Origin: a virus
IMG/VR virus record: IMGVR_UViG_3300036846_001176
Location: 29,048 to 93,047 of that record
DNA length: 64,000 bases
Direction: 5' to 3' (one strand)
Positions 19,695 through 63,200 of this stretch are shown here, in pieces (position 1 is the first letter of the stretch; the number at the start of each line of letters is the position of its first letter). Under the pieces are notes generated by a model. It was not told where the DNA came from, did no database searches, and worked only from the letters and a program-made list of their open reading frames with translations. Position numbers and translations under genes: made by a program.

Positions 19695-20066
19695 ACGTCG
19701 TCGTTGTCCTGCTCGGGGTGATCATCGTCATGCTGGTGCGCTATCACGTCGCCTGGTAGGCGTCTGTTCCACTGGCTACGCCATCTGCTGCACCTCCAGC
19801 CGATCGAGGTCGTCACGGAGCGGCGCAACGGTGATCTCTGGATCGGCGCGCGCTGCGTGATCTGCGGCCGCACCGCGGGCTGGCATCACGCGCGGTTTCG
19901 CTGACCGCTGCCGGTCGGGGGATCAATCCCGACCTCCCATGTTGGATTTTCACGGGACCGCGCCGGCCGGCCTTTCCTGGTCCGCACTGCCAGGCGGTAT
20001 CGGCCGACACGAGGCAGTGGTGGAATGTTGCAATCATTAGAGCTTTCCGGCAAAACTTGACCCAAT

Positions 20067-20089
20067 GCGGCCAGAGAGCCGCTTTTTTT
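20067..20089 (+). terminator. Intrinsic terminator
   Basis: gcggc-cagaga-gccgc followed by T7. Confidence 0.7.
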
Positions 20090-20106
20090 GTGGGGAACCG
20101 CCGACG

Positions 20107-27619: not shown

Positions 27620-30600
27620 GCGGGCCCGTGTTCAATCCGGCGATCATCGAGACACTGCGCAAGCGCGTGGCGGCGCATAACGAGATCGTCGCCGGCCATC
27701 CGGATCATCAGGTCAAGCTCACGCGGGTGAAGAAGCTCTACAAGCGCTGGCACTCGGGTCCGAACCCCGCCGGGCACGCGCTGGCCATGATCGATGGGCG
27801 CCTGCTGACCTTGCAGACCCAGGCGCTAGGCACGCTGGCCAAGGCGCGCGAGCCGTTCGATCCCGGCCGCCACCCGCGCGGCCGCGGCGGACGGTTCAGC
27901 GGCGGTGGTGGCGATGACGGCGATGGCGGCCAGCCGCCGGCGCCAGTTCCGTCCGACGATCCTCTGCTGCAGGCAGCGCAGACCCAGATCATCCCGGAAA
28001 CCCGCTACAGCGTGATCTGGCCGAAGATCCTCGGCGCAGCTGGCCTTGCCGTCGGCGCGGGGGTTGGCGCGGTGGCCGATACAAGACTGCCCGGCCAGGG
28101 CGGCGGCAGCGTGCCGGATCGCATAGCTACCCACGTGCTCGAGCGCGTCGGCCGCGGCGGTGGCAAGCTCAGCGGGCGCGTTGCGGCGCTGCTCGCGGTG
28201 CGGCTGCCGATCCGCATGGCGCGCGGCGTGATCGGCCGGATCAACCGTGATTACAGCATGGCGATCCCGCGGCCGCGGGCCGGCACCGAAGTGCGCTATC
28301 GGGCTGCCATCAGGGATGTGGGCGGCAAGGTCGGGGCATGGACCGGTCGCACCCTGGGCAACACCATGTCCTACCAATCGCTGCCGGCCGGCTACACGCG
28401 CCGCCTCGCCGAATTCGAAAGCAACGGCTCGCCGATCGCCGGCCACATCGCCGGCGGCATCGTCGGTATGGCGGTCCCTGGCCTGCCGATCGCCATGCGC
28501 CTGCACGACTGGCAGGAAGAGGCGGGCCCCTACATGGACACGGCGTTCCCGCGGCGCGTGCAGAAAGCCGTAGACGACCTCTGGAACGCACCCGAGGTGC
28601 TGGCCAAGCAGGCGGAACTGCTGGCGCTCGCCGGGGTGCCGGAATTGCGCAAAAGCGACGGTGCGCTCGACCTCGACCAACTGGAAAAGGCGATAGGCAC
28701 GCAGGCGCTGCGCGGGCTGTTCAGCGTCATCCGCCGGCCACCGTCGATTTCCGGGATGTTCCGCCGGCCTGCCGCTGCGGCGGCGGCGGCAGCGGGAGGA
28801 CCGGATACCGGCGCCTATCATGCCGCTGCCGGGGCGTTCGGGCGAGTGCGACCGCATGTCGCGGTGCCCAACAACCGCCTGGCGCGCGCGCTCTACATGG
28901 CCGGCCATGGGGTGGCGATTGCCGGCGCCGGCGCCGGTGTCGGCGCGCTGACCGGTGCCGGGCTGGCAGCGTTCGCCTCCGAGCATCCGCGCGATCCGCA
29001 TACCGGGCAGTTCCGCACCAAGGGGCAGGCGGCGATCGCCGGGGCCAAGCGTGGCGCGCTGATCGGTGCCGGGATCGGCCTGACCGGCGGCGCGATCGCG
29101 GCCACCCAGGCGCAGCGCCGGCTGCTGCGCGAGGCCATCGAGCGGCTGCGCGGGCGCGCCACCACCAAGGTGACCACCGACGGCGTCACCAAAGACGTCA
29201 ACCTGCACCAGCAGGCGCACGAGGAGGCCCAGGCCGCGGCGCGCACGGCCTACGCGCATCAGTTCCACGATGAGCACCGACTGGGCCGGCAGCGCATTCC
29301 GGCGGCCGCCGCCAACGTGACCGGCGAGGACCACATCAAGCACATCGGCGCCGAACTGCAGCGCCACGCCGTTGAGACCTTCATGGCCGAGAAGGGCACG
29401 GCGATGCAGGCCGGTGCCAAGGTCTGGTATCGCCATCAACTCGAGGCCGGCTTCGAGGCCGCGGTCAGACGCGCGTTCGGCGAACTGCCCAAGGGGCAGC
29501 GCAGCATTCCGCGCAAGACGAAGTTCGGCACGCTGTTCGATGCGATCGACAAGCGCAAGCTGAAGCCCAATCAGCGCAAGCTCTGGAACAGCCTGGTCAT
29601 CACCCGCCGCAAGGGCCTCAAGGACATCGAGGACGTCTATCGGGGCCGTTCCAGGGAGGTGCAGCGGCATGGCGCGACGTTGGGTCGGGAGATGCGCGAG
29701 CACGCGCATCTGACCGAGGTCTTGCCGACGATTTCCCATGACTGGGCGGCGCTGAAGAATTCCGAGCCGACGCTCGAGCAGATCCGCGAGTTCGCCAAGA
29801 CGACGATGGGTCACACCGTGCGCTCGCAGAGCGTCGAGACCGCGATCGAGGAGGTCGACCACCGCATTCCGACCTGGCTGGAGGGTGCGACCGTCCGGCA
29901 TACCGCGCTTGGGACCCAGATCGAACAGGACAAGGCAGCCTACAACGCGCTGAAGGCGGCGGCCGACCAGGGGTTCGATCCGCAGGAAGCGCAGACCATC
30001 GAGAACCCGTTCTCGACCAACAAGAAGAACCGGATGTTCGAGCCGCTGATCGGCGACATCCCGGGGCACCTGCAGAGGCTGCGCGAGGCAGCGGTCAAGC
30101 CGTTCCACGACGCGTTGGCAGCCGAGGTCGCGGCCGCGCACGGGCATCTCGGCGAGATGATCGACGCGACCGAAGCCTCGCTGCAGGCGCGCGCGACGGA
30201 TCCCGGCGTGATCGAGCGGATGGCGCCCAAGATCATGGCGGCGATGGCGGGGCGCATGAAGCAGGCGGCGATCGACACCGCCAACCTGGCACGCGCGCAC
30301 CGCGACAGCCTGTCCGGCACGATGCGCGACATCTACGACCAGGTGTATGTTCACACCAATCCGACCAACGCCTGGGCGTCGGCCAAGAAGATGGCGATGA
30401 ACGCCGCCGATTATGGCGAGAAAATCGGCGACTGGGTGCGCCGCAACCACAAGATGATCTGGGGGCTGATCGGCATCGGCACCGCGGTCGGGGTCATCGA
30501 CATGACCGCGCCGCGCGGCAAGCGGCTCAATATGCCGCGGCGGCCGAAGGACATGGACGTCGTCTTCGAGGTGCCCGATCCGATCAAGCGGCCGGGCGAG

Positions 30601-34278: not shown

Positions 34279-35787
34279 ATGTCAGGTAGCGTCTCAGAGA
34301 GCGTACGCCTTGTACGCGACATGATGGCGTCGAACGCGACAGGCGTCGGCGCATCTCCACTGGCCAAAGCGTTTCTCCAACCGACCACCGCGACCACGGG
34401 TCTTCAGGTTTACGACCTTGAAGCGCCCGCCAAATTGCTCTATCCGGTGCTCACACCGTTGCGTAACAAAATCCCCCGCGTGGGCGGTGGACGTGGTATC
34501 CAGGCTAACTGGCGTGCAATTACAGCTATCAATACCAGCAATATCAGTGCTGGTCTTGGCCAGGGTAACCGCGGCGGCGTGATGGACCAGACCATCAAAG
34601 AATACTTCGCAGCCTATCGCGGAATTGGCCTGGACAACTACGTCACCTTCGAAGCCGACATGAGCGCCGAAGGCTTCCAGGATCTGAAGTCGACCGCGGT
34701 GCAGAGCTTGCTCCGCGCGCTGATGATCCAGGAAGAGCGCATCCTGCTCGGCGGCAACGGCATCACCGGGCTCGGCACCACGCCGACACCGACGGTGACC
34801 GCGATCGGCTCGGGCGGCGCGATCGGCACCGGTATCACCGTGCAGGTCGGCTGCGTCGCGCTGACCATGGAAGGCAAGCGGCTCTCGACGATGGGCGCCG
34901 GCGTGCCGCAGCAGATCAGCCGCACCAACGCCGACGGCTCGACCGACGTCTATGGCGGCGGCGCGGGCGGTCCCTCGGCCATCGGCTCGGTCGCCACCTC
35001 GGCCGCCGGTTCGTCGATCTCGGCGCACGTCGCGCCGGTGGTCGGCGCGTTCGGCTATGCCTGGTATCTCGGCACCGCCGGCACCCAGTACCTCGTCGCG
35101 ATCACCTCGATCAACTCGATGCTGTACACCACGGCGCTGCCGGCCACGGGGCAGCAGTTCTCCACCATCGCCGGCGACAACTCGGTCAATCAGTTGGTGT
35201 TCGACGGGTTTTCGGCCATCGCGGCCAAGCCCGGCTCCGGCGCGTACTGGGCGGCCATGCCGACCGGCACCGACGGTATCGGCACGCCGCTGACCGCCGA
35301 CGGCGCGGGCGGCATCGTCGAGATCGACAGCGCGCTGCAGTCGTTCTGGGACAACTACCGGCTCAGCCCCGACGAGATGTGGGTATCGTCTCAGGAGCAG
35401 AATTACTTTCGCAAGAAGGTGCTGATGGCGCCATCGGCCACCGTGCCGCTGTCGCGCTTCACCATCGCCACCTCGCAGGACCGGGTGCGCGGCGGTTCGT
35501 CGGTGCGTGGCTACCTGAACCCGTTCGGCATGGGCCAGGCGCAGGAGATCCCGATCCGCCTGCATCCCGACATGCCGCCGGGCAACGTCCTGTTCACCAC
35601 GTCCGAGTTGCCGTACGCCCTGAATGACGTGACGAACGTGTATCAGGTTCGCACACGGAAGGACTATTACCAGATCGAGTGGCCGCTCAGGACCCGCAAA
35701 TATGAGTACGGTTGCTACAGTGACGAAGTGCTTCAGCACTACTTCCCGCCGAGCTTGGGTTTCATAACGAATATCGCGCCGGGCTAG
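34279..35787 (+). CDS. Major capsid protein
   Basis: YDLEAPAKLLYPVLTPLRNKIPRV N-terminal motif, YQIEWPLRTRKYEYG C-terminal motif; position; start may be 34321. Confidence 0.85.
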   Translation: MSGSVSESVRLVRDMMASNATGVGASPLAKAFLQPTTATTGLQVYDLEAPAKLLYPVLTPLRNKIPRVGGGRGIQANWRAITAINTSNISAGLGQGNRGGVMDQTIKEYFAAYRGIGLDNYVTFEADMSAEGFQDLKSTAVQSLLRALMIQEERILLGGNGITGLGTTPTPTVTAIGSGGAIGTGITVQVGCVALTMEGKRLSTMGAGVPQQISRTNADGSTDVYGGGAGGPSAIGSVATSAAGSSISAHVAPVVGAFGYAWYLGTAGTQYLVAITSINSMLYTTALPATGQQFSTIAGDNSVNQLVFDGFSAIAAKPGSGAYWAAMPTGTDGIGTPLTADGAGGIVEIDSALQSFWDNYRLSPDEMWVSSQEQNYFRKKVLMAPSATVPLSRFTIATSQDRVRGGSSVRGYLNPFGMGQAQEIPIRLHPDMPPGNVLFTTSELPYALNDVTNVYQVRTRKDYYQIEWPLRTRKYEYGCYSDEVLQHYFPPSLGFITNIAPG

Positions 35788-50797: not shown

Positions 50798-51251
50798 GTC
50801 AGAAACCCAGCTCTTCTGGGGGATGGTAGACGTCAAAGGCCGAGATGAGTGCTGGCCGTGGCGAGGAAAACTTTATGGCACGGGTCAATACGGCATGTTC
50901 GCCAGAAAGGTCGATGAGAAGTGGCAGACCGTCTCCGCTCACAGGCTTAGTTTCGAATTAACAAAAGGTCCTATCCCCAAGGGTCTTCAGATCTGTCACT
51001 CCTGCGATTTTGGTCCTTGCTGCAATCCGCAGCATCTCTTCGTTGGAACGCAGACCGACAACATCATAGACATGTTCGACAAAGAGCGGGGAAATGCGAA
51101 GTTAACTAAGCAGGCTGTGTCTGAAATTCGCCAGTCTCATCGTAGCCTTCCATCGACTGATACGGTGCGACGTCTTGCCAGGAAACACCTGGTTCACCCA
51201 AGGACAATCCGGAACGTCATCAACGTCCAAACCTGGGCGCACCTGCCATGA
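50754..51251 (+). CDS. HNH homing endonuclease
   Basis: CWPW.G...YG, AHRLSF, ICHSCD...CCNPQHL..GT..DN..DM; lower GC than flanks. Confidence 0.9.
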   Translation: MSNKRRNWRGRRTPKSETQLFWGMVDVKGRDECWPWRGKLYGTGQYGMFARKVDEKWQTVSAHRLSFELTKGPIPKGLQICHSCDFGPCCNPQHLFVGTQTDNIIDMFDKERGNAKLTKQAVSEIRQSHRSLPSTDTVRRLARKHLVHPRTIRNVINVQTWAHLP

Positions 51252-54200
51252 GCGATCGCGCGCCGCTGTCATTTGACATCGACAGCACCAGCGCCCAGCG
51301 CGCCGTCTCCGTGCTGCAGACGCTGGTCACCCAGGCGCAGGCCGCGGTCGCCACCACGACGCAACTGGCGCAGGCCCAGGGCCAGCTCACCACCTCCTAC
51401 GCGCAACAGGCCTCCGAGATTTCGCGACTGGCCGATGCCACCCGCAATTACGGCGGCACGCTCAACGGCCTCGTCTCTCAGCTGAACCAGCTGCGCACCG
51501 CGGTGACGTCGGCCTCCGGCGGCAACCTGTTCTCCGGCTATGCGCGCATGCTGAACGAGGCGCAGGCCGTCGCCGCTCAGCTCAACACCTCGGTCGAGGG
51601 CATCGACCGGTTCATCTCCAAGGCCCGCCAGCTCAACATCACCTCGCAGGATCTGGCGACCGGCCTCGGCCGCATCACCGATGCGCTGAAAGGACAGTCG
51701 GCGGCCGGGATCAACGCCAACGTCATGCTCGCGCAGCTCGGCGTGAACATGAGCGGCGTCTCGCCGAACCAGCCGAACCTGATCCTGCAGCGCATCCAGG
51801 ACAGCCTGCGCCAGATCCAGGATCCGACGCTGCAGGTGCAGATGGCCCAGCGGGTGATGGGGCCGGCGTTCACCGCGCAGGACACCCAGCAACTCGTCCG
51901 CCAGCCCTACATCCCCTACTGGCAACAGCAGGAGCAGAACCGTCGCGCCAACGACCGCGCGAACATCGATGCGCAGCAGGTCACTGCCCAGCGGTTGACG
52001 ATGGAGCACCGCCAGCGGGCCGACGAACTGGCCGACCTGCAATCGCGGTTCACCCGCTTCGGCGGCTTCTTCGGCCGCGCCGGGGTCACCGACTTCCTCG
52101 CCAATCCCTTCGTCACCAACAACGAACTGCTGCGGCAATACCGCGAGATCGCCAGCCGTCCCGAGAGCCAGCGGGCACCCAATGAGCGCTTCGGCGAAAT
52201 GGGCCGCCAGGCCTATGAGCGAAGCGACATTGCGCGCATCACCCGCAACTTCGCCTCCGGCGGGTTCACCTCCAGCCAGGGCGAGATCGAGGCGCGGTTC
52301 GATAAGGACCTCGATGACGTCGGGCGCATCCAGGCGACCATCAACGAGATCAAGCGCACCTGGCAGAACCTCGGCGGCAACTATCAGCGGCTCACCCCGG
52401 AGCAGATCCAGACCGCGCTGACGCCGATAGAACTCAGGGAGCGTCAGCGCCAGGCCGGCGACACGCTGGCAACCTCGTTCGGCGATGCCAGGGTCTCGAA
52501 CATCGTCCGGCTGCAGGACCTGGCAGAGGTCGACCAGGGCAATCAGCGGGAACTCTACAACCGCGCTTATGGCGGCCCGGGCTTTGCGCCCGGCGAGGGT
52601 GAGCGGCAGTACCGCTACGGACAAACCCGCCGGCAGACCGAACTCGAGGATCTGCGCCGGCCGGAAGCGGGGGCGCTGCGGGACGCCAACTTCCGCCGCT
52701 ACATCCAGGGTCTGGCGCCTGGCGACCGGGCGCGCGCGATCGCCGGTGCGGCGTACTATCGCGGCCAGACCGGCAATGAGTTCGTGCCGGGCGAGGGCGC
52801 CGGCGCGGATGCCGCCTACCAGAGCCCGGACCTTTCAGACAGAGCGCGGGCCGCCGGGCGGACGCTCGAGCGGGAAGGCCAGATCGGCCTGCGCGCGGCC
52901 GATACCGAGCAGACCCAGCAGACCATCCAGCTGCAGAAGGAACTCGCCCAGGCGCTGACCGGCACCCGGGCGGCAGCGGAAGACGCGCTGCGCGCCTGGA
53001 ATGCCTACCTCGCCGCGCAATCCAACAACGGCGATGCCGAGACCCGCAACCTGGCCGCCCAGCACGCGGTCACCGCGGCGATGTCGCAGCGCATCACCCA
53101 GGGCCAGGCCCTGGTGCGCCAGCAGCAGCAGGAAAACACCGTCGCCGCGCAGCGCGCCGCCGACGCCTCGCGCTACGCCACCGCCGATCCGGTCACCCGC
53201 GCCGCCTTCATGGCCGCCTCCGGCGTCGATGCCCAGGTGCAGCGGGCGATCTTCGCCGGCCAGCTCCAGGATCCTACCGGCGGCCGCGTCGCGGTGCGCG
53301 ACGCCAATGGCCGGATCACCCGGTACGACGACGTCCGTCTGTCGGACGACGAACGGCGCCGCGCCGAGCAGACCAACGCGGAATACCGCCGCGGCCTCTT
53401 TTCGCAGCAGGCCGCCGAAGGGGCGGGTGCTGCCGCCGCGCAGGCCACCGGCATCGTCTCGGCCACTCAGACCGGCGCGCGCACCGCTGCACTGATGGGC
53501 CAGGGCTACACCGCCCAGCAGGCCGAGGAACGCGCGACCTCCGAGCAGAAGCTCGCCGAAGCCGCCGGCGCTGCGCAGAAGGCGATGGAGGAAACCGCCA
53601 ACGCCACCGACCAGGTCGGCAAGAGCGCCCATGAGGCTGCCGAGCAGAACCTGCACACCGTGCAGGCCGAGCAGCAGCGCCTGGAAAGCCTGACCCGCCA
53701 GCTCGATGCCCAACGCGCCATCGTCGCGGTGATGGAACAGACGCGCCAGATCATGGAGGACACCAACCGCACCATCAACGACATGAAGATCGGCGACGCC
53801 TTCCGTCAGGCGGCCGACGAGTTGCAGCGGTTGATCCAGCCGATCCTCAATGCCCCCGGCGTCACCGGCGGCGGCGGCGAGGCGCAGATCTCCGGCGTCT
53901 ACGGCGTCGTGTCCGGCCAGGAGACCGGCGGCGGTCGCACCGGCACAGGCAGCAACCTGGTCAACCAGCCGCTGCCCGGGCAGAAGCCCTCCAGCGCCAG
54001 CGGCTATTTCCAGATCGTCGATAGCACCTGGCAGGAATATGCCAAGAAGGCCGGCGTCGATACCACGCAGTATCCGCGCGCGATCATGGCGCCGCCCGAC
54101 GTGCAGGCGCACGTCGCCTCGCTCATTCCGCTTGGTGCCTGGAGGAGCTCGGTTCCCGGCAAGCCGGGTGCTGCCGACATCATCGTCCAGCAGCATCCCA

Positions 54201-57200
54201 ACGTGAACTTCGGCATGCCACTCGGCCAGGTGGCGACCACGCTGGGCCAGCCAATGCTGCCGACCATCACGACGACCAGGGCGGGCACGCCGGTGACGGT
54301 GACCGGCGGGCAGCCGGCCTTGCCATCGGTCTCGCTCAGCATCGAGGACATCCGCCGTCTGGTGGAGCGCGGCGAGCATCTGAAGCACGGCGACTACGGC
54401 CTGCAGGACCCCGACATCGACACGATCAATCGCTCCGTCGATGAGGTCAGGCGCAAGCGGCAGGTCGGCATCCAATACACGACGCAGCAACTGACCGAAC
54501 AGGTCGACCGCGAGTTGGCCGCGCAGGGTGGCCGGATCCGCATCCTCCAGGGCGGCGGTGGTGCTGGCGAGGCCGCTCGCGTCGTCACCCGTCCGCCAGG
54601 GTTGACCGATGCCGAATGGGATCAGCGCCGGGCGCAGGAACAGCGCCGTGTCGTCGGTGGCCAGCAGACCGAAGCCGCCGGCGATGCCGCCCGGCGTGCC
54701 GACGAGATACGCCGCCTGCAAGAGCAACAGCGCGCCTACACCGGCACGATCGCCGAGCAGATCGCCGCCCAGCGCGACCTGACAGCCGCCGAGCAGGCGC
54801 ACCAGGAGGTGCAGAAGGTCGGCTCAGGCATCCTCAACGAGGCCGATGAGCGAAGCCGCAATTTCGTCGCCAACCTCGCCAAGGAGACCGATGAAGTCCG
54901 CGCATCGACGGCGGAGATGCAGCGCCAGCGGTCCGGCATGGAAGCTGCCGCGGATGCCGCCAAGTTCGGCCCCGGTGCCGAGCAGAAGGCCGCCGAACTC
55001 AAGCATATCACCGACGAAATCGAGAGCCTGCAGATCCGCCTGCAAACCGCCAACGAGGCGGAAAGGAAGGGCATCGAGGACGCGATCACGGGCTACCAGC
55101 GCAAGGCGCAGGCGATCGAAGAGACCTCCCTCGCCGCGGCCAAGCAGCGTACCGCCGAGGAAGCCTATCGGCAGTCGACGCAGAACCAGGACCAGATGGC
55201 GACCAACGCGCTGGGTCCGTTTGCCACCCAGCTCGACATCCGCCGCACCCAGCGCTGGATGGGCGTCGCCCGCGAGTTCGCCGAACACCCCGGCCTCGAG
55301 CAGACACAGGCCGGCCAGGAGCGGATTTCCGCCGCCCGCGCGGCCGACGAGATCGACAAGCAGACCGAGAGCATGAACGAGCTGCGCCAGGCGGCGCAGT
55401 CAGCGGGCGATGCCATGGAGCAGGCCTTCACGGCGGTCGCCAACCGCTCGGAGACCGCCGGCCAGGCGGTCCACAACCTGGTCGGTTCGCTCAACCAGAT
55501 CGCGCTCAAGACCTTCGTCATCAAGCCGTTCGAAAAGGCGATGGGCTCGCTGTTCGGCGACATCTTCGGCAGCGGCGACACGCCGAGCGGCTCATCGGGC
55601 GGCAAGACCGACAACACGGTGTTCGGCATCGCCCATCGGCTGATGAGCGGCGGCGGGGGGGCGGGCGCCGGCAGCGGCGGCAGCAGCACCACCGCGACGG
55701 CCGACGAGGACTGGATCAGCCGGGGCTGGCATTACCTATTCGGCCGCAAGGGCTCGGGCGGCCAGGGCACGACGGGCGTGCCGACCGACATCGCCAGCGC
55801 CGGCAAGACACTGGCCGATGCCGGGGTCGGCGGCACCGGCGGTGGCAAGACGGAGACGGCTCTGCTGGCGGCTGCGCAGCCGGTCTACGTGGTCAACTGG
55901 CCGACCTCGCTCGGGGGAACGGGAACCGGCGCCGGCACCACCGCGGGCAACGCCACGGGCGGCGGTATGGGCAGTGGCGGCGTTGGCGGGGCGGCGGGCG
56001 ACAAGGCCCTCGCTGACGACCTGGCGCGGCGCGGCGGCAACGTCATCTCGCAGCGCACCGGCATCCCGCCCGAGAACATCACCACCAACGGCGTGCCGCT
56101 AAGGGGCGGCGGCACGGCCACCACGGGCGACGGCATCCCGATCAAGCCTTACCCGCAGCCCGATGACGTCACCAGCGGCGGCGGAAGCGGTGGTGGCGGG
56201 ACCGATGGTGGCGGCGGGGCGGCCACCTCGTCCTCGCCCGGCTGGTTCATGCCGAGCGGACAAAGTGGCCAGCAGTACTATGACCTGAGCCCGCCCGCCT
56301 GGAACTGGCAACCGAGTGCCGGGGATACCGGAACCGGCGGTGACAGCGGCGCCTCGCAGCAGGACCTCAAGGACCAACTCGACCAATTCCACCGCGACAC
56401 CCTGAGCTCGAACGACAACGCCCCACCGGACGACGGCTCTTATGCCGGCCTGATGAGCGTCGCCAACGACAATGCCACCGGCGCCGACGTCTCCGCCGCC
56501 AGCGGCGGCTGGGACGCCTCGGGCGACCAGACCAGCTGGGACACCTCGGGCGGCGGCAACGCCCGCACCATCCAGCTCGGCGGCGGCCCGCGCGTGTCGC
56601 GCAACTACAGCGGCACCGAACTCGACGCCGGCATCTACGGCCTCGGCCAGCTCGGCCGGGCGGTTCCGGCGGTCGGCGGCGCCAGCGCCAGCATCGGCGG
56701 CGCCAACGTCAACATCTTCTCCGGCATCATGGACGTGCTGAAGGCGGGCTCGGCGCAGGAGAAGTCGGACGCCGCCCACAGCGGCGGCACGGCAGGCGGC
56801 AGCGTCGGTGGCAGTGCGAGCGGCTCCAGCAGTTCCAGCCCCGGCCTGCTCTCGGAGATCTTCGGCCATGCCGGCGGCATCACCGGCTGGGCGACCGACA
56901 AGATCCTCGGCAAGGGCATGTACGAGCGCGGCGGGTTGATCGGCATGCTCAGCCGCGACATCCAGGGCAAGGGCGGCGACAAGGCGGCCGACGCGATCAA
57001 GACCGGCGGCACCACGCCGGCCGGCAGCAGCAAGGTGACGACCCAGGACCTCGCCACCACCCAGAAGGCGATGGCCGACGCCAAGGACGACAACACGGTC
57101 GGCAGCGGCACCGACACGGCCACCACCGACACCAGCGCGGCCGGGGTAGCGCTCTACGACGATCCCACGAGCACCGGCGGTGATGGCGGCGACGGCGGCG

Positions 57201-57664
57201 GCTGGGGCGACGACAGCACCTTCAGCGGCGGTGACTTCGGCGGCGACGTCGGCGGCGGCGGGGACTTCGGTGGTGGCGACTTCGGCGGTGGGGGTGGGGG
57301 CGACCTCGGCGGCGGCTGGGGCGACGACAGCACCTTCGCCCTCGGTGGCATCCCGCGCAGCGGCCTGGCAGGCCTGCGCAACACCATCGTCGAGGCGCCC
57401 ACCGTGTTCCGCTTCGCCGGCGGCGGCCGCACCGGCATGGCCGGCGAGGCAGGCGCCGAAGCCATCCTGCCGCTCAAGCGCGACGGCTCAGGCCGGCTCG
57501 GCGTCTCGGCCGGCGCCTTCGGCGGCGGCAACGGCGGCGACAATCACTTCCACACCTGGAACATCCAGACGCCGAGCCCCGAGAGCTTCATGCGCAGCCG
57601 CAACCAGGTCGAGGCGGCCATGACCCTCTCGATGAGCAAGGCCAGGGCCCGCAACAACCAGTAG
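51248..57664 (+). CDS. Tape measure protein with internal lytic-transglycosylase-like domain (2138 aa)
   Basis: Gln/Ala helical repeats; QETGG...SSASGYFQIVDSTW; C-terminal GEAGAEAILPLKR.GSGRLGV. Confidence 0.9.
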   Translation: MSDRAPLSFDIDSTSAQRAVSVLQTLVTQAQAAVATTTQLAQAQGQLTTSYAQQASEISRLADATRNYGGTLNGLVSQLNQLRTAVTSASGGNLFSGYARMLNEAQAVAAQLNTSVEGIDRFISKARQLNITSQDLATGLGRITDALKGQSAAGINANVMLAQLGVNMSGVSPNQPNLILQRIQDSLRQIQDPTLQVQMAQRVMGPAFTAQDTQQLVRQPYIPYWQQQEQNRRANDRANIDAQQVTAQRLTMEHRQRADELADLQSRFTRFGGFFGRAGVTDFLANPFVTNNELLRQYREIASRPESQRAPNERFGEMGRQAYERSDIARITRNFASGGFTSSQGEIEARFDKDLDDVGRIQATINEIKRTWQNLGGNYQRLTPEQIQTALTPIELRERQRQAGDTLATSFGDARVSNIVRLQDLAEVDQGNQRELYNRAYGGPGFAPGEGERQYRYGQTRRQTELEDLRRPEAGALRDANFRRYIQGLAPGDRARAIAGAAYYRGQTGNEFVPGEGAGADAAYQSPDLSDRARAAGRTLEREGQIGLRAADTEQTQQTIQLQKELAQALTGTRAAAEDALRAWNAYLAAQSNNGDAETRNLAAQHAVTAAMSQRITQGQALVRQQQQENTVAAQRAADASRYATADPVTRAAFMAASGVDAQVQRAIFAGQLQDPTGGRVAVRDANGRITRYDDVRLSDDERRRAEQTNAEYRRGLFSQQAAEGAGAAAAQATGIVSATQTGARTAALMGQGYTAQQAEERATSEQKLAEAAGAAQKAMEETANATDQVGKSAHEAAEQNLHTVQAEQQRLESLTRQLDAQRAIVAVMEQTRQIMEDTNRTINDMKIGDAFRQAADELQRLIQPILNAPGVTGGGGEAQISGVYGVVSGQETGGGRTGTGSNLVNQPLPGQKPSSASGYFQIVDSTWQEYAKKAGVDTTQYPRAIMAPPDVQAHVASLIPLGAWRSSVPGKPGAADIIVQQHPNVNFGMPLGQVATTLGQPMLPTITTTRAGTPVTVTGGQPALPSVSLSIEDIRRLVERGEHLKHGDYGLQDPDIDTINRSVDEVRRKRQVGIQYTTQQLTEQVDRELAAQGGRIRILQGGGGAGEAARVVTRPPGLTDAEWDQRRAQEQRRVVGGQQTEAAGDAARRADEIRRLQEQQRAYTGTIAEQIAAQRDLTAAEQAHQEVQKVGSGILNEADERSRNFVANLAKETDEVRASTAEMQRQRSGMEAAADAAKFGPGAEQKAAELKHITDEIESLQIRLQTANEAERKGIEDAITGYQRKAQAIEETSLAAAKQRTAEEAYRQSTQNQDQMATNALGPFATQLDIRRTQRWMGVAREFAEHPGLEQTQAGQERISAARAADEIDKQTESMNELRQAAQSAGDAMEQAFTAVANRSETAGQAVHNLVGSLNQIALKTFVIKPFEKAMGSLFGDIFGSGDTPSGSSGGKTDNTVFGIAHRLMSGGGGAGAGSGGSSTTATADEDWISRGWHYLFGRKGSGGQGTTGVPTDIASAGKTLADAGVGGTGGGKTETALLAAAQPVYVVNWPTSLGGTGTGAGTTAGNATGGGMGSGGVGGAAGDKALADDLARRGGNVISQRTGIPPENITTNGVPLRGGGTATTGDGIPIKPYPQPDDVTSGGGSGGGGTDGGGGAATSSSPGWFMPSGQSGQQYYDLSPPAWNWQPSAGDTGTGGDSGASQQDLKDQLDQFHRDTLSSNDNAPPDDGSYAGLMSVANDNATGADVSAASGGWDASGDQTSWDTSGGGNARTIQLGGGPRVSRNYSGTELDAGIYGLGQLGRAVPAVGGASASIGGANVNIFSGIMDVLKAGSAQEKSDAAHSGGTAGGSVGGSASGSSSSSPGLLSEIFGHAGGITGWATDKILGKGMYERGGLIGMLSRDIQGKGGDKAADAIKTGGTTPAGSSKVTTQDLATTQKAMADAKDDNTVGSGTDTATTDTSAAGVALYDDPTSTGGDGGDGGGWGDDSTFSGGDFGGDVGGGGDFGGGDFGGGGGGDLGGGWGDDSTFALGGIPRSGLAGLRNTIVEAPTVFRFAGGGRTGMAGEAGAEAILPLKRDGSGRLGVSAGAFGGGNGGDNHFHTWNIQTPSPESFMRSRNQVEAAMTLSMSKARARNNQ

Positions 57665-57675
57665 AGACGAATGGC

Positions 57676-58329
57676 ATGGGCGTCAGCTTCGATGAGGTGC
57701 AGTTTCCGTCCTCGATCAGCCAGGGCGCGGTCGGTGGCATGCGCTTCTCCACCACCGTCATCAGCCTCAGTTCCGGCTCCGAGCACCGCAACATCAACTG
57801 GTCGGCCTCGCGCGGCAAATGGGACGTCAAGCACGGGCTGAAAACGCAGTTCCAGATCGAGCAACTCATCGACTTCTTCGCCGCGCGATACGGGCGCGCC
57901 TACGGGTTTCGCTTCAAGGACTGGATCGATTACCGGGTGCCACGCTGGGAGTACGCGCCGGGCGATCTGTTTCCGATCCCGATCATGTTCACGACAGATG
58001 GCCATACGCCATCGTTCCAGATCACCAAGTTCTACGGCGACGTGAACCGCGGCTACCTACGGATCATCCAAAAACCTGTGAGCGGCTCGGTGGTAGTGCT
58101 GCGCAACGGCGCGCAGATCCTGCCGCCGCAATGGTCGGTCGACGTCACGACTGGCATCGTCACGCTGGCCGCCTCGATCTACACGACGGTGGGCACGCAG
58201 ATCGGGCTCGCGTGTGAGTTCGACGTGCCCGTTCGCTTCGACACCGACGAGATGCAGACCACCATCACGACGACGGAGATTTATAGCTGGGACGCCGTGC
58301 CGATCGTCGAAATCCGCGAGATCAACTGA
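57676..58329 (+). CDS. DUF2460 distal tail protein (RcGTA-like)
   Basis: FDEVQFP..IS.GA.GG..FST.V, FRFKDW.DY, FDVPVRFDTD. Confidence 0.9.
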   Translation: MGVSFDEVQFPSSISQGAVGGMRFSTTVISLSSGSEHRNINWSASRGKWDVKHGLKTQFQIEQLIDFFAARYGRAYGFRFKDWIDYRVPRWEYAPGDLFPIPIMFTTDGHTPSFQITKFYGDVNRGYLRIIQKPVSGSVVVLRNGAQILPPQWSVDVTTGIVTLAASIYTTVGTQIGLACEFDVPVRFDTDEMQTTITTTEIYSWDAVPIVEIREIN

Positions 58330-58360
58330 TGCCGGGACCTTACGATCACCGGCATCAGTT
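58324..58360. terminator. Perfect 12-bp hairpin closing the orphan guide
   Basis: aactgatgccgg / ccggcatcagtt, 13-nt loop. Confidence 0.75.
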
Positions 58361-58418
58361 TCACGCCTGCCATGCCCCGCCGTGTCATGCCTTGTCGTGC
58401 CACGCCGAGCCGGGCCGT
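58361..58418 (-). ncRNA. Stand-alone GGC-NN guide unit
   Basis: Minus strand ac GGC cc GGC tc GGC gt GGC ac GAC aa GGC at GAC ac GGC gg GGC at GGC a GGC gt; same grammar and GGC-A-GGC terminus as array units. Confidence 0.85.
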
Positions 58419-58422
58419 ATGA

Positions 58423-58451
58423 TTACTAAGCCCACCACGATGGACGGTCAA
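58423..58451 (-). promoter_or_regulatory. Sigma70-like promoter for the orphan guide
   Basis: Minus strand TTGACC-17 nt-TAGTAA(T), ending ~5 nt before the first NN. Confidence 0.65.
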
Positions 58452-58456
58452 TAGCG

Positions 58457-59803
58457 ATGCCAAAAACCATCTCCGTCGCCTTGAAGGCCCACATCGCGCA
58501 GACCGTGACGACGCTCGCCACGTGCTGGCGGATCGTGCGCAACGATGGCGCAACGTTCGGGTTCACGACGCATGATGCAGACTTGTTCATCCTCGGCGTG
58601 CCGTACCTGTCGGTCTCGGGGTTTTCGGCGGGGGCGATCCAATCGGGCACCACCGGGCAGGTCGATAACTTGCAGACGCTGGGCTATTTTTCTGACACCG
58701 GCGTCCGGGTGCAGGATGTCAAGAACCGCCTGTTCGACTACGCAACGGTGTTTTTGTTTATGGTGAATTGGCGCGACCTGACCATGGGTCAGATCAACAT
58801 GCGCCGCGGCTGGCTGGGCGAGACGGTGGTGGCGCCGAACGGCGCGTTTGCCGCCGAGCTGCGCGGCATCAACCAGGCGCTGGTGCAGGAGTTCGGCAAC
58901 TTCTTCAGCCCGCTCTGCCGCAACGACCTGGGCGACATGCACTGCCAGGTGCCGATCCTGGCGGCGAAGTGGATCCCGAGCTGGCCGGTCGGCACGGGCA
59001 CGCATATGAGCCAGATGACCGCGACCACCGACGAGACCCGGATCGCGGTCTATGTCGCGACGAATTCCGGCACCACCTGGTCGACCGAGCCGATCTGGAA
59101 CCCGGCCGTCGGCTCATTGACGAATGACAATGACATTGTCTGGCAGTCGATCGAGCCGATCCGCAAGATCGCCTACGCGACGCAGGCGATCGACCAGCAC
59201 AACTTCCTGTCGACGCCCCTAGTGGCGGCGGCCACCATCGGCAACACCGCGCAGATCTCGATCACCAACGACGTCTCACGGGGATCGGCCATCGAGTTCT
59301 CCGACGGCATCAACAGCTGGAGCCTGAGCTTCTACGACGACATGAAGCGCGCCAACGCGGTCGGCTACATCGCCACTCTCCTGCCGACGTCGGGGCTTAA
59401 TTTCAGCTACACCGGCGTGCTCGGGCCGGACAGCTACTACAACATCCAGATCACCAACCTGAACAGCCAGAAGGGCAGCGTCACCAAGACCGGCGACATC
59501 CTTGGCGCTATCGTGATCGACAATTTCGGCGACGCCTACCTCGATGCCGGCACGATCACCTGGGACACCGGCTTCAATGCCGGGGTGACGGTCGAGCTCA
59601 AGACGTACAACCCGACCGCGCAGCAGGTGACCACCTATCTCGGCCTGATGATGCCGGTGACCGCGGGCGACCGGTTCTTCTACTACCCGGGCTGCGACAA
59701 GCGGCGCGACACCTGCGTCAAGAAGTTCAACAACATCCGGAATTTCCGTGGCGAGCCCGACATCCCCGGCATCGACAAGATGCTGTCCTATCCGGACAGT
59801 TGA
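58457..59803 (+). CDS. DUF2163/BR0599 baseplate hub protein
   Basis: TTLATCWRI.R.DG..FGFTTHD; CRNDLGD..C; GCDKRRDTC..KFNN..NFRGEP.IPG. Confidence 0.9.
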   Translation: MPKTISVALKAHIAQTVTTLATCWRIVRNDGATFGFTTHDADLFILGVPYLSVSGFSAGAIQSGTTGQVDNLQTLGYFSDTGVRVQDVKNRLFDYATVFLFMVNWRDLTMGQINMRRGWLGETVVAPNGAFAAELRGINQALVQEFGNFFSPLCRNDLGDMHCQVPILAAKWIPSWPVGTGTHMSQMTATTDETRIAVYVATNSGTTWSTEPIWNPAVGSLTNDNDIVWQSIEPIRKIAYATQAIDQHNFLSTPLVAAATIGNTAQISITNDVSRGSAIEFSDGINSWSLSFYDDMKRANAVGYIATLLPTSGLNFSYTGVLGPDSYYNIQITNLNSQKGSVTKTGDILGAIVIDNFGDAYLDAGTITWDTGFNAGVTVELKTYNPTAQQVTTYLGLMMPVTAGDRFFYYPGCDKRRDTCVKKFNNIRNFRGEPDIPGIDKMLSYPDS

Positions 59804-60237: not shown

Positions 60238-63200
60238 ATGGGCAGCCAGATCGGCTCCAGCGCCTTCGGCATGGCCGGCCACATGCTGGGCGGATTTTTG
60301 GGCGGCCCGATCGGCGGCGCGATCGGCGGCATGGCCGGCGGCATCATCGGCTCGCTGCTGTTCGGGCGCAAGAACAAGCCGATGGTGCCCGACGTGCAGC
60401 TCATGAACTCGGCGTATGGCAAGCCGATCCCGATCGTCTACGGCAAGATGCGGCTGCCGGCCAATATGATCTGGCAGACCGACATCGAAACCAAGGAGCA
60501 CAGCGTCGGCAAGGGGATGGGCGGGCAGAGCGCCTACAGCTACTTCCAGAGCGCCGCCCTGGCGTTCTGCGAGGGCCCGGTCGATTTCCTCAAGCTCTAT
60601 CTCGATGGCCGGCTGTTCGTCGACCAGACGGTGCTCTATCCGGTCGAGCAGACGAAATACAAGTTCATGCTGCGCGGCTATATCGGCGACGAGACCCAGG
60701 TGGCCGACCCGGCCATGGTGCAATGGGTGGCGCTGCATGCGCTGCCGTGGAACTCATGCCCGGATTATCACGGTCTCGCCTACCTGACCTTCATCCGGCC
60801 GGACCTCACGCATTTCGGCAACCGGTTTCCGCAGGTCACCTGCATCGTGCAGTCCAACCCGAAGCACTTCACCAAGTTCCAGCAACTCGTCCGCTACACC
60901 ACCGACTACTTTATCGTCGCCTACCTGTTCAGCAACGGGCAAAGCATCGCGGTCGACTGGGTGCGTGGCGCGGTTTACACGCTGATGGCACCCAACGGCG
61001 TATCCTTCATGCCGGTGAAAGGCTGGGGGATCGCCACCTTCAACGTCTATCTCGGCGCGCAGACGCAGTTTGCCGACTGGGACCACATCTTCTTCGGCGG
61101 CGGCCTCTATCCGGAAGGCACCGGTGGGGTCAATGCCATCACCTGCACCCAGGGTGGCCGGATCTACGGCTGGAGTTGGTCCACCGGCGTCATCTTCTCG
61201 ATCAACCCGAACACCATGGTGTTCGACGGCGAATACACCCAGGTGGACCTGCACGGCGGCTGGGAGCTCTCGCAACTGCAGGGCTTCGAACTGGTCACGC
61301 CGATCGGCTCGATGGAGATGCTGATCGGCCTTATCCCGGGGAAGGGTGTTGTCATTATCAACCCGTTGACCCGGGCCCAGAGCGGCATCCTGCCGCACCG
61401 TTTCACCAGTTCGTATGCCACGTTCTGGCTCAGTGTCGCTTTCGCCATCGGCCATCAGGACACCATCTCGGGCACGGTCGATATCTGGTATGTCGTCGGC
61501 CACGCGGGCGACCCCGACCAGGGGACCTATATCTACAAGGGCGTCGTCAATTCATCCGATCCATCGGGGCTGGAGATCTGGCCGTGGGAGGAAGTTGGTG
61601 TTCTGACGCCGCAGGACTTCGGCGCCCCGCCGGGTCCGGTCACGACGTGGCAGCCAGGCTACGACAACGTGTTCTATTACGATGCGGATGACAGCATCGT
61701 TGTCTGTTTAAACAGCCCGTTTCAGGCGGTTTGCAAATTCACCAACAATGTCGGCGCTGGCTGGCGTCTGACCGGCGGCACGCTCGGTTGGTATAACCCG
61801 CAGGCCGACACCTCGCTTGGCTACCTGCCGGTCACCGGCGGCGGCGTGTTCGCGCTGATTTTCGCTGAACTCGACAACACCAGCCTGTGGGAGAACGTCG
61901 ATCTCGGGACCGGCAAGATCACGCCGAGCCCGGTCAACTACAGCGGCGCCGATGCCACGCCGAACATCATGTTTGCCAGGTCGGGGCAGATCGAATTCTC
62001 GCAGAGCTATGGCGACTTCGTGCTCTACCAGGGCTGGACGGACGGTGAAATCCACATCGCCTACCTGCTGCGCCAGGCCACCAACCGGGTGAAGGTGGGC
62101 GACATCATCACCGACATCTGCGGCCGCGTCGGCGTCACGCCCGACATGATCGATGTGACGCAGATCGACAGCTACGAGACCACCGGCTACTGCATCCAGG
62201 AGGCCAAATCCGCCGGTGCGGCCATCGCCGACCTGCTGCACGTCTATCAGATCGACATGGTCGAGAGCGACTTCCGGCTGAAGTTCCTGCCGCGTGGCCT
62301 GCCGGTGGTGGCCAGCATCCCGCAGAGCGACCTCGGCTCGGTCGACGAGAAAGACCCCTCGCAGTACTGGCGGGTCAAGGAAGCGCAGCAGCAGGAACTG
62401 CCGATCCAGCTCGTGCTGCGGTTTCAGGATCCCGACCTCGATTTCCAGTCAGGCGCCACCTATGCCAAGCGCATCGAGCTGCCGGTGCCCACCGCCTGGT
62501 CGAAGCGGCGGATGAACATTGATCTTCCCGTCATCGTCAACAACACCGAGGCGCGCGGCATCGCTGAGAAGTGGCTCTACACGATGTGGGCCGAGCGCGA
62601 CACGGTGGAGACCGTGCTGCCGTGGAAATACCTGTTCCTCGATCCGGCGGACAATGTGAACGTCCTGCTGGACAACGGCGACTTCAACGTCATCCGCATC
62701 GAGGAGCAGAACATCGGCGCCGACCTCTCGATCCGCGTCCATGGCGCGTTCGAGGACCTCAACGTCTACAACCCGGCGCCGCATTTGCTGGGCGCCATCA
62801 CTGGGTTTCAGCAGCAGATCGTCCAGGCCGCGCCGTTTGCCGAATTCCTGCAATGGAACACCCCGCTCCTGCAGGACGCCGACGACACCGGCGGGGCGTC
62901 GATGCGGATCTATTACGCGGCGGGCGCCTACACCAACGGCTGGGTCAGCGGCGAGCTCTGGCGCTCGGTCGACAACTCGGCCACCTGGGAGGACTTCGCC
63001 GGGATGCCGACCGCCGCGGCCTGGGGGCACTCGATCACCCAGCTTGGCGATACGCCCTCGCGGTTTGCCACCGACATCGTCAACACGGTGACCATCCAGC
63101 TCATCTCCGGGGCGACCCTGCTGTCGTGCACCTACGACCAGATGCTGAGCGGGGCGAACGCCGGGCTGCTCGCCGGCGAGGTGATCCAGTTCCAGACGGT

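What the first reader, a model, noticed from the sequence alone, without database searches (positions are those of the whole stretch)
57976..58418. The orphan guide spells a variant of the gene it sits behind (DUF2460), suggesting attack on close relatives with self-avoidance
Seen: orphan NN in plus order = at cc gt at tt gt ac ga gg gt (IPVMFVTDGV). The adjacent gene at 57976-58005 reads atc ccg atc atg ttc acg aca gat ggc cat (IPIMFTTDGH). Seven of 10 dinucleotides match in codon phase, and the mismatches are plausible substitutions. Rough equal-composition chance is about 4e-7 per position (~0.06 over the window, ~6e-4 within the adjacent gene). Inference: the guide targets the homologous tail gene of a sister phage or GTA while this copy has diverged at 3 codons. 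It is also independent in-window support for the skip-1 code.
Basis: partly seen in the sequence, partly recalled or inferred. Interest (0 to 1): 0.88.

Follow-up and report, generated by a model that had tools for sequence, protein, structure and literature searches.

The report
Solo VIPR guide beside its near-target
A soil phage carries a lone guide-RNA gene of the recently described VIPR silencing system wedged between two tail genes, and its guide almost, but not quite, matches the gene next door; most lone guides in this phage and its sister follow the same pattern, which suggests each guide is kept next to a resistant copy of its own target.

Summary
Window 58367-58416 (minus strand) is a run of ten GGY-NN pentamers. 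It matches the units of the phage's large VIPR array at 1004-1862, and the VIPR system and its 1-nt-skip code were published in 2026. By analogy with a validated array guide, the guide has 9 variable units plus a constant terminal GGCAG.

- **Self match:** the guide matches codons 101-109 of the adjacent DUF2460 gene at 7/9 units (15/18 nt), with the skipped base on the wobble position. This is the best site in the 104.5-kb genome (local shuffle p=0.0045).
- **General pattern:** 6 of 8 solo guides in this phage and its sister have their best, imperfect site within about 600 bp, in the neighbouring gene (combined p=5e-8).
- **Better matches elsewhere:** the sister phage scores 16/18 and a clade of ~47-kb phages scores 17/18.
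- **No perfect target:** none was found among 120 DUF2460 homologs or in three collections.
- **Self-avoidance unproven:** the self match (83%) passes the published 80% calling threshold.
- **Same slot, different cargo:** the sister carries a homing endonuclease gene at this junction.

Verdict: a real solo vrRNA. It is most likely aimed at non-self DUF2460 alleles and linked to a mismatched own allele. This is a new variant of a known kind.

The parts
58367..58416 (-). Guide tract of the solo vrRNA. It has ten GGY-NN units: eight GGC and two GAC. The nine variable NN, read 5'>3', are CC TC GT AC AA AT AC GG AT. The tract ends in the constant unit GGCAG (58367-58371).
   Evidence: The architecture matches the ~40 guides of the phage's three staggered arrays. 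The tract is 100% conserved in two 96-98% identical variants from other soil samples.
58358..58366 (-). Linker GCGTGAAAC after the terminal GGCAG. The 'GGCA|GGC' one-base stagger seen between array guides is kept here.
   Evidence: This corresponds to the 'staggered vrRNA arrays' of fig. S18 in bioRxiv 10.64898/2026.04.26.720920.
58327..58357 (-). 3' stem-loop with a 9-12 bp stem and a 13-nt loop. It overlaps the TGA stop of DUF2460. It probably serves as the vrRNA 3' end or cap and as a terminator.
   Evidence: The fold of 58322-58420 (minus strand) gives -47.6 kcal/mol, z = -3.25. The only substitution in this element in variants lies in the loop, at 58342.
58422..58451 (-). Putative promoter for the vrRNA: -35 TTGACC (58446-58451), a 17-nt spacer, and -10 TAGTAAT (58422-58428). 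The predicted start falls at about the first GGC.
   Evidence: Read from the sequence. The strict sigma-70 scan did not call it. Other vrRNA units of the genome carry TTGACG-type -35 boxes. A natural variant reads TTGACG here (58446 G>C).
57976..58001 (+). Near-cognate site in DUF2460, codons 101-109 (IPIMFTTDG). It matches 15/18 guide bases. Mismatches are in unit 3 (AT vs GT) and unit 6 (AC vs GT) in plus-strand order. All skipped bases are codon position 3.
57676..58329 (+). DUF2460 / TIGR02217 tail gene (217 aa). From memory, not tested here, it is the homolog of the GTA g12 distal tail protein.
   Evidence: Pfam PF09343, E=5e-58. A homolog in Citromicrobium phage RXM is annotated 'distal tail'.
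58457..59803 (+). Baseplate hub gene (448 aa), the next gene of the tail operon.
   Evidence: Pfam PF09931 and PF09356.
58328..58333 (+). Left copy of the 6-bp direct repeat GATGCC that flanks the 128-bp insert. It is a remnant of the ancestral TGATGCC stop/start overlap.
   Evidence: Relatives read cTGATGcc with no intergenic space.
58456..58461 (+). Right copy of the direct repeat GATGCC, at the present start codon of the hub gene.
2418..3263 (-). vipr gene (281 aa), a Cas7-like RAMP. It is the effector that would load the solo guide and lies 55 kb away.
   Evidence: AF2 model pLDDT 76.5. Top Foldseek PDB hits are Csm3, Cas7 and Cmr RAMPs, E about 1e-4. There are 2099 homologs. The sister phage has a 63-70% identical copy.
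1912..2445 (-). Candidate vap accessory gene, overlapping the end of vipr.
   Evidence: ORF. It hits PHROG 15946 (unknown function) and has no Pfam hit.
1004..1862 (-). Main staggered vrRNA array of about 18 guides. Guide K (1504-1563) serves as the positive control for the code.
   Evidence: Guide K matches 22/22 in frame in a patatin gene of another viral contig.

Best explanation
The stretch is a solo vrRNA gene of the phage's own VIPR system (Vipr RAMP protein plus GGY-NN guide RNAs that read DNA two bases on, one base off).

**Anatomy.** It is a 128-bp insert in what is otherwise an overlapping stop/start junction between the DUF2460 (distal-tail-like) gene and the hub gene. It is transcribed antisense to the tail operon from its own promoter. 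It ends in the clade's constant GGCAG unit and a hairpin.

**Proposed function.** Loaded into Vipr filaments, its nine NN pairs would bind the conserved IPVMF[V/T]TDG-coding stretch of DUF2460 genes in other phages that share this GTA-like baseplate module. Binding would block transcription of their tail operon.

**Self copy.** The phage's own copy, 366 bp away, is near-cognate but differs at 3 of 18 read bases in two units. I infer that this spares it.

**Linkage.** Keeping the guide next to a mismatched allele of its own target appears to be a rule for solo guides in this clade. Such linkage would ensure that a recombinant inheriting the guide also inherits the resistant allele.

**What is shown.** The anatomy, the match statistics, the adjacency rule, the better matches in homologs, the RAMP fold, and a perfect foreign target for an array guide.

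**What is inferred.** Expression, loading into Vipr, the mismatch threshold, the identity of the real target, and the selective reason for linkage.
For: - **Unit structure:** it is identical to that of the array guides.
- **Effector:** a Vipr-like RAMP is encoded in the genome.
- **Code works in this phage:** array guide K matches 22/22, wobble-aligned, in a patatin gene of IMGVR_UViG_3300037247_000990.
- **Self site:** it is the unique genome-wide best hit at 15/18, in frame, with local p=0.0045.
- **Adjacency rule:** 6 of 8 solo guides in this phage and its sister have their best site within 53-605 bp. In five of these the site lies in the neighbouring ORF with the skipped base on the wobble position. 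Matches are never perfect (2-7 mismatches). Combined p=5e-8. Internal guides of the large arrays behave as the null expects.
- **Better non-self matches:** the sister allele scores 16/18 and is unique in its genome. Seven homologs score 17/18 and eleven score 16/18, against a maximum of 15 for shuffled guides.
- **Conservation:** guide and site are invariant in 96-98% identical variants whose flanking codons carry many synonymous changes.
- **Published precedent:** solo vrRNAs exist, and guides that score lower on self than on rivals have been reported (10.64898/2026.10.15.759431).
Against: - No perfect DUF2460 target (9/9 or 10/10) was found in any collection searched.
- The perfect 9/9 hits that do exist fall in unrelated genes. 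Most are peptidase M28 genes, the rest have no long ORF in that frame, and none is a DUF2460 homolog.
- The self match (83%) is above the 80% identity used in the papers to call targets. The margin between self and sister is a single base.
- For the sister's two testable solo guides, the self site scores 1 nt higher than this phage's allele.
- Isoleucine at position 3 also occurs in relatives without the guide.
- There are no RNA data. The strict promoter scan found nothing.
- Mismatch tolerance of VIPR is not reported in the three papers.
- The adjacency rule could not be replicated outside these two related genomes. Eight more distant Vipr+ phages had no dispersed solo guides.
Confidence: 0.48

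Rival explanations
1. Self-regulation. The solo vrRNA-Vipr complex binds the near-cognate site in the phage's own DUF2460 despite three mismatched bases. There it acts as a tunable roadblock that delays or dampens the tail operon. It could also shield the convergently transcribed vrRNA gene from read-through.
For: - The self site is the best in the genome, is adjacent, and scores 83%, above the published 80% calling threshold.
- Four of seven solo or mini-array guide/site pairs are convergent with the neighbouring gene.
- Two of the sister's solo guides score higher on self than on this phage's allele.
Against: - A dedicated regulator would be expected to match perfectly, yet none of the 8 solo guides does (2-7 mismatches).
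- Positional homologs (own genome 100323 and sister 62242) carry entirely different guides. That looks like turnover rather than housekeeping.
- Some sites lie in the last 10-20 codons of the neighbouring gene, where a roadblock cannot repress it.
- All 72%-identical relatives do without the element.
Confidence: 0.2
2. Homing-like selfish cassette. Vipr binding to a sensitive DUF2460 allele in a co-infecting relative stalls replication or transcription close to the junction. This favours recombinants that copy in the guide together with its linked resistant allele, as free-standing homing endonuclease genes do.
For: - In the 89%-identical sister, the same junction holds a His-Me/HNH homing endonuclease gene.
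- Relatives have no intergenic space at this junction.
- Target and cassette lie within co-conversion distance for 6 of 8 solo guides.
- The insert is flanked by a 6-bp direct repeat.
- A low-depth contig in the source sample suggests a further related variant of the hairpin region.
Against: - Studied VIPR systems repress and do not cut. The vap here has no recognisable nuclease domain.
- There is no evidence of recombination tracts.
- No sensitive (perfect-match) allele was found.
Confidence: 0.12
3. The resemblance to DUF2460 is incidental. The guide's real target lies elsewhere, for example in the unknown host or another element that also carries a beta-strand-TDG motif. Its place in the tail operon would then reflect only a permissive insertion site.
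For: - Perfect 9/9 matches exist only in unrelated genes such as peptidase M28.
- 15/18 matches arise by chance at about 0.1 per 100 kb. Several guides reach 15/18 in 630 kb of unrelated phage DNA.
Against: - Local shuffle p=0.0045 for this guide and 5e-8 for solo guides as a class.
- The match is wobble-aligned.
- The fit to the family motif exceeds every one of 300 shuffles.
- The unrelated hits are from marine-sediment metagenomes and mostly Bacteroidota genomes, not from anything linked to a 67% GC soil phage.
Confidence: 0.08
4. Inactive relic. The cassette once targeted an allele that is now extinct or has escaped. It persists without function, as a homing endonuclease gene does after fixation.
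For: - No perfect target exists in any collection searched.
- Two of ten units are degenerate (GAC instead of GGY).
Against: - Guide, promoter boxes and hairpin stem are intact and unchanged in variants that differ by 2-4% in flanking DNA. One variant improves the -35 box.
- Internal degenerate units are common in functional vrRNAs according to the paper.
Confidence: 0.12

Closest known systems
VIPR systems: Vipr RAMP plus vrRNA with GGY/NN repeats and the 1-nt skip rule (bioRxiv 10.64898/2026.04.26.720920 and .720927)
   Same: - Pentamer GGY-NN guides of 9-12 units.
- A Cas7-like effector with a G-loop.
- A two-gene locus.
- Targets in coding DNA with the skipped base on the wobble position, on either strand.
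- Encoded by a phage.
   Different: - This is a soil, 67% GC, ~104-kb siphophage with a GTA-like tail, not an enterobacterial or Pseudomonas phage.
- Guides lie in 'staggered' arrays (one-base overlap, constant terminal GGCAG) with no conserved pseudoknot tail per guide.
- The genome has three arrays plus four dispersed solo guides.
Solo / orphan vrRNAs of F5 satellites and VIPR-null SUSP1-like phages (bioRxiv 10.64898/2026.10.15.759431)
   Same: A single vrRNA is encoded away from vipr. Reported cases include guides that score lower on self than on rivals, which avoids autoimmunity.
   Different: - Here the carrier genome is VIPR-positive.
- The solo guide sits inside a structural operon.
- Its near-target is the phage's own neighbouring gene, whereas that study found no candidate target region covered by the phage's own homology.
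- Its tail is not shared with the array tails.
Free-standing homing endonuclease genes of phages
   Same: - A small selfish-looking insert in an intergenic junction of a conserved operon.
- The target lies in the adjacent conserved gene of relatives.
- The carrier allele differs at the recognition site.
- The sister phage has such a gene in exactly this slot.
   Different: No nuclease is involved as far as can be seen. Recognition is RNA-guided through a protein encoded 55 kb away. Mobility is not shown.
Phage-borne CRISPR mini-arrays
   Same: Phage-encoded guides are used against competing mobile elements. This comparison is from memory and was not tested here.
   Different: The effector family, the guide code and the lack of an adaptation module all differ. 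No linkage of guide and resistant target allele is known to me for these.

Membership tests
VIPR vrRNA | Tandem GGY-NN (YNNGG) pentamers, at least 4 units and typically 9-16, with constant GGY and variable NN | tested here: met
   There are ten in-phase units at 58367-58416 (minus strand): eight GGC and two GAC.
VIPR vrRNA | A Vipr (minimal RAMP) protein available in the same genome | tested here: met
   The 281-aa ORF at 2418-3263 (minus strand) gave an AF2 model whose best PDB matches are Csm3/Cas7/Cmr subunits. No sequence match to any PDB chain was found, so identity with published Vipr structures was not checked directly.
VIPR vrRNA | Targets obey the 1-nt skip rule with the skipped base on codon position 3 | tested here: met
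   Array guide K matches 22/22 in frame in a patatin gene. For the solo guide, only skip 1 gives a high-scoring site, and that site is wobble-aligned.
VIPR vrRNA | A natural non-self target at 80% NN identity or more, and no self hit at 80% or more (criterion used in the discovery paper) | tested here: inconclusive
Non-self DUF2460 alleles reach 89-94%.
VIPR vrRNA | A conserved structured 3' tail that caps the guide (pseudoknot in type II) | tested here: not met
   The solo guide ends in GGCAG plus a private hairpin. Array ends carry a different hairpin with the conserved loop CAACGGTTCACCGG. Other solo guides have other hairpins. This fits the 'staggered array' architecture of fig. S18 rather than type II.
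VIPR vrRNA | Expressed as a small RNA that co-purifies with Vipr | not testable with these tools
   Only soil DNA runs hold the sequence. No RNA run was found.
Solo vrRNA (sensu Lopez et al. 2026) | Encoded without an adjacent vipr/vap operon | tested here: met
   It lies 55 kb from vipr, between tail genes.
Solo vrRNA (sensu Lopez et al. 2026) | The tail shares high identity with the helper system's vrRNA tails | tested here: not met
   The hairpin sequence is unlike the array-terminal hairpin of the same genome.
Homing-endonuclease-like mobile cassette | Presence/absence polymorphism at a precise junction among close relatives | tested here: met
   This phage and its 96-98% identical variants have the 128-bp insert. 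The sister has an HNH gene there. Five relatives at 63-72% identity have an abutting or overlapping stop/start junction (0-2 nt, no insert).
Homing-endonuclease-like mobile cassette | Demonstrated over-transmission or co-conversion of flanking markers | not testable with these tools
   This needs crosses or population-level haplotypes.

The most novel reading that the evidence does not exclude
Solo vrRNAs in this phage clade are RNA-guided counterparts of homing endonuclease genes. Each cassette sits beside a resistant allele of the very gene it targets. In mixed infections it silences or stalls the sensitive allele of relatives. The cassette then spreads with its linked immunity by recombination. 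In effect it is a guide-encoded gene drive that competes with true homing endonucleases for the same intergenic slots.
Probability: 0.15. Interest if true: 0.9.

Novelty: new variant of a known kind. Interest (0 to 1): 0.66.

Why it matters
VIPR was described only in 2026, and its biology is known mainly from one E. coli phage-satellite pair. This phage shows several things not yet reported:
- a VIPR-positive phage that scatters single guides through its genome;
- each solo guide placed next to a gene that carries an imperfect copy of its own target;
- one such guide sharing its insertion slot with a homing endonuclease in a sister phage.

If the linkage is functional, it gives a population-genetic rule for how RNA-guided weapons avoid autoimmunity when phages recombine: keep the guide next to the resistant allele. 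It also offers natural mismatch series (15/18, 16/18, 17/18) for measuring the specificity threshold of the noncontiguous code. That threshold matters for any use of VIPR as a tool.

Tried and rejected
- **Exact 10-unit pattern:** no hits in IMG/VR, JGI metagenomes or GTDB genomes.
- **Exact 9-unit pattern:** 1, 65 and 37 hits respectively. None is in DUF2460. Most are in a peptidase M28-PDZ family or out of frame, so they were rejected as unrelated.
- **Exact patterns for two other solo guides and for array guide L:** no hits in IMG/VR.
- **Array guides against the sister and eight other Vipr+ phages:** nothing above chance.
- **Replicating the adjacency rule in eight more distant Vipr+ IMG/VR genomes:** they have arrays only beside vipr and no dispersed solo guides, so no test was possible.
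- **Self versus sister allele as a test of direction:** two cases each way, so uninformative.
- **Rfam:** no family matched.
- **Strict sigma-70 and terminator scan:** nothing called.
- **PDB sequence search with Vipr:** nothing.
- **Sequencing runs:** soil DNA only, with no RNA. No demonstrated co-occurrence with the sister phage.
- **Rejected readings of the pentamer tract:** a coding reading (small ORF or CHA-repeat peptide) was considered and rejected, and a plain 15-nt tandem repeat was considered too. Units in the arrays are interrupted by 4-mers that break any reading frame, and the tract follows the array architecture.

Full report
**What is there**

The 127-nt space between the DUF2460 gene (57676-58329, Pfam PF09343, E=5e-58) and the baseplate hub gene (58457-59803, PF09931 plus PF09356) contains a run of ten phased pentamers. 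They read NNG[C/T]C on the plus strand and GGY-NN on the minus strand (58367-58416). The same units make up an ~860-bp array at 1004-1862. That array lies next to a 281-aa ORF and a small overlapping ORF.

They describe VIPR systems as follows:
- A minimal Cas7-like RAMP (Vipr) polymerises on vrRNAs made of GGY/NN repeats.
- Each NN pairs with two target bases and one target base is skipped.
- The skipped base usually falls on the codon wobble position.
- Binding silences transcription.
- Natural targets were called at 80% NN identity or more, and no self hits passed that threshold.
- Solo vrRNAs exist in satellites and in VIPR-null phages.

**Membership in VIPR**

The 281-aa protein has more than 2000 homologs, all annotated as hypothetical. 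Its AF2 model (pLDDT 76.5) finds Csm3, type VII Cas7, Cmr and Cas7-11 subunits as best PDB matches, with E about 1e-4 and probability 1.0.

On the minus strand the large array splits into about 18 guides of 8-12 units. Each guide ends in GGCAG and overlaps the next by one base. This is the 'staggered array' architecture of fig. S18 of the discovery paper.

As a positive control, array guide K (window 1504-1563) has a perfect 22/22 match in the GxSxG elbow of a patatin-like gene on IMGVR_UViG_3300037247_000990. The match is in frame and wobble-aligned. About 0.01 such hits are expected by chance (my estimate). In that target the constant terminal AG is not matched, so a guide consists of its variable units only.

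**The solo guide**

Read on the minus strand, the element has these parts:
- A plausible promoter: TTGACC, 17 nt, TAGTAAT (58422-58451). The strict scan did not call it.
- Nine variable units: CC TC GT AC AA AT AC GG AT.
- The terminal GGCAG with the characteristic GC stagger.
- A strong hairpin (58327-58357) that overlaps the DUF2460 stop codon (fold z = -3.25).

It has no GGY in front of it, so by analogy with guide K it is probably not presented.

Other parts of the 104.5-kb genome, outside the window, hold two more staggered arrays and three more solo guides. Array ends share a hairpin with the loop CAACGGTTCACCGG. Solo guides have private hairpins.

**The match**

- With nine units it scores 7/9 (15/18 bases, 83%).
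- It is the single best site in the window and in the whole genome. It appears only with a skip of 1, and every skipped base is a third codon position of DUF2460.
- With shuffled unit order, a hit of 7/10 or better somewhere in the window has probability 0.02-0.075. Given about 18 guides in the window, that alone would not be convincing.
- Restricted to +-1 kb around the guide, the shuffle p is 0.0045.

**A general rule**

I called all guides in this genome and in a sister phage: IMGVR_UViG_3300036833_000307, 102,563 bp, terminal repeats, DUF2460 89% identical. For each guide I asked where its best genomic match lies.

- For the ~35 internal guides of the large arrays, the best match within 1 kb is what chance predicts.
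- For 6 of 8 solo guides the best local site is significant (p 0.0005-0.046). The Fisher combined p over all eight is 5e-8. In four of the six, that local site is also the unique best match in the genome.
- The same holds for two guides of small or terminal arrays.
- The solo-guide sites lie 53-605 bp from the guide.
- In five of the six the site is in the neighbouring ORF with the skipped base on codon position 3.
- All six sites are imperfect, with 2-7 mismatched bases of 18-24.

I found no mention of this in the three papers. The second study states that no candidate target region was covered by the phage's own homology.

**Who is the target?**

At this site the DUF2460 family reads [ILMF]PV[MFWL][FL][TV]T[DN]G. 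The guide spells IPVMFVTDG and the phage's own gene reads IPIMFTTDG.

| DUF2460 allele | Match to guide |
|---|---|
| This phage (IPIMFTTDG) | 15/18 |
| Sister phage (IPVMFTTDG), the only site with 3 or fewer mismatches in its genome | 16/18 |
| Several relatives at 63-72% identity | 16/18 |
| Seven homologs at about 50% identity (IPV[FL]FVTDG) | 17/18 |
| Shuffled guides against the same 120 homologs, 300 trials | never above 15/18 |

The 17/18 group belongs to clusters that occur on ~36-47-kb phage-like contigs with a GTA-like tail module.

No homolog has a perfect match. The exact 10-unit and 9-unit patterns find nothing in DUF2460 genes in IMG/VR, JGI metagenomes or GTDB genomes. The 9-unit hits are in unrelated genes, mostly a peptidase M28 family.

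- Valine at position 6 is absent from all close relatives.
- Isoleucine at position 3 also occurs in relatives that lack the guide.
- For the four solo guides whose neighbouring gene has a homolog in the other phage, self and non-self differ by one base, twice in each direction.

'Attack on relatives with self-avoidance' is thus plausible and has published precedent, but it is not demonstrated. Mismatch tolerance of VIPR is not given in the papers.

**The junction**

- In five relatives at 63-72% identity, the DUF2460 stop and the hub start overlap or abut (cTGATGcc), with no intergenic space.
- This phage has a 128-bp insert flanked by a 6-bp direct repeat, GATGCC. The left copy forms the 5' arm of the hairpin.
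- The sister has, in exactly this junction, a 172-aa low-GC ORF with a His-Me/HNH homing endonuclease signature (PF05551, E=5e-6). It is spliced in by overlapping start and stop codons.
- Two variants of this phage from other soil samples, 96-98% identical, keep the guide and the site unchanged. Their flanking codons carry many synonymous changes. The only changes inside the element are in the hairpin loop and in the -35 box, which becomes TTGACG.

**Reading**

| Explanation | Confidence |
|---|---|
| Functional solo vrRNA aimed at non-self DUF2460 alleles and kept next to a mismatched own allele, so that guide and immunity are inherited together | 0.48 |
| Self-regulation of the tail operon through tolerated mismatches | 0.20 |
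| Homing-like selfish cassette | 0.12 |
| Inactive relic | 0.12 |
| Coincidence, with another target | 0.08 |

The element is a member of a known kind (VIPR solo vrRNA). The linkage of solo guides to near-cognate neighbouring genes, and the sharing of a slot with a homing endonuclease, are new.

Noticed in passing
L001 3651-4169 (sister phage IMGVR_UViG_3300036833_000307): A 172-aa low-GC ORF with a His-Me/HNH homing endonuclease signature (PF05551, E=5e-6). It occupies exactly the DUF2460/hub junction that holds the solo vrRNA in the window, and is joined by overlapping ATGA and TGATG.
   Followed up: partly
Own genome outside the window: G000 20060-20545 (+), 22533-22641 (+) (locus L093 60-545 and 2533-2641): Two further staggered vrRNA arrays, of 11 and 2 guides. 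The phage therefore has three arrays and about 35 guides in all.
   Followed up: partly
G000 2229-2283 (+; L092), 23013-23067 (+; L093 3013-3067), 100323-100377 (-; L094 7276-7330): Three more solo vrRNAs. Two of them have their best local match, both wobble-aligned, in the adjacent ORF: 16/20, the genome-wide best, for the guide at 23013, and 15/20, one below the genome-wide best of 16/20, for the guide at 100323. The one at 2229 has no local match.
   Followed up: yes
window 961-1003; G000 20546-20590, 22642-22690; sister 28389-28430, 34820-34864: Every array ends in a hairpin whose loop is the conserved motif CAACGGTTCACCGG. This could be an array-specific 3' cap or a processing signal. Solo guides lack it.
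   Followed up: no
Upstream of most vrRNA units (e.g. G000 20015-20059, 22490-22532; sister 62195-62241): A shared promoter-like motif, TTGACG-N8-9-AAAAC-N3-GCACA, followed by a short leader hairpin (GCACA...TGTGC) just before the first GGC. The solo guide at 58367-58416 has the TTGACC box but no leader hairpin.
   Followed up: no
window 1504-1563 and L252 5948-5979: Array guide K matches 22/22, in frame, the GxSxG elbow of a patatin-like phospholipase gene on a 67.7-kb viral contig (IMGVR_UViG_3300037247_000990).
   Followed up: yes
window 58328-58333 and 58456-58461: A 6-bp direct repeat, GATGCC, flanks the 128-bp solo insert. ATGCC is both the hub gene's start and a legal plus-strand vrRNA unit. 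This hints at insertion by microhomology.
   Followed up: partly
window 58300-58334, run X1 record 4: A 151-nt low-depth contig from the phage's source sample matches the end of DUF2460. It continues into a diverged version of the hairpin region. This may be a third, co-occurring relative with its own element at this junction.
   Followed up: no
window 51248-57664: The tape measure ORF is 2138 aa and has long glycine-rich repeats near its C-terminus (57157-57293). Relatives have versions of 1863-1954 aa.
   Followed up: no
G000 20953-20981 (L093 953-981): The terminal guide of array 2 has its genome-wide best match (16/20) about 400 bp downstream, in a stretch without a long ORF. This is unlike the coding-gene sites of the solo guides.
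   Followed up: no
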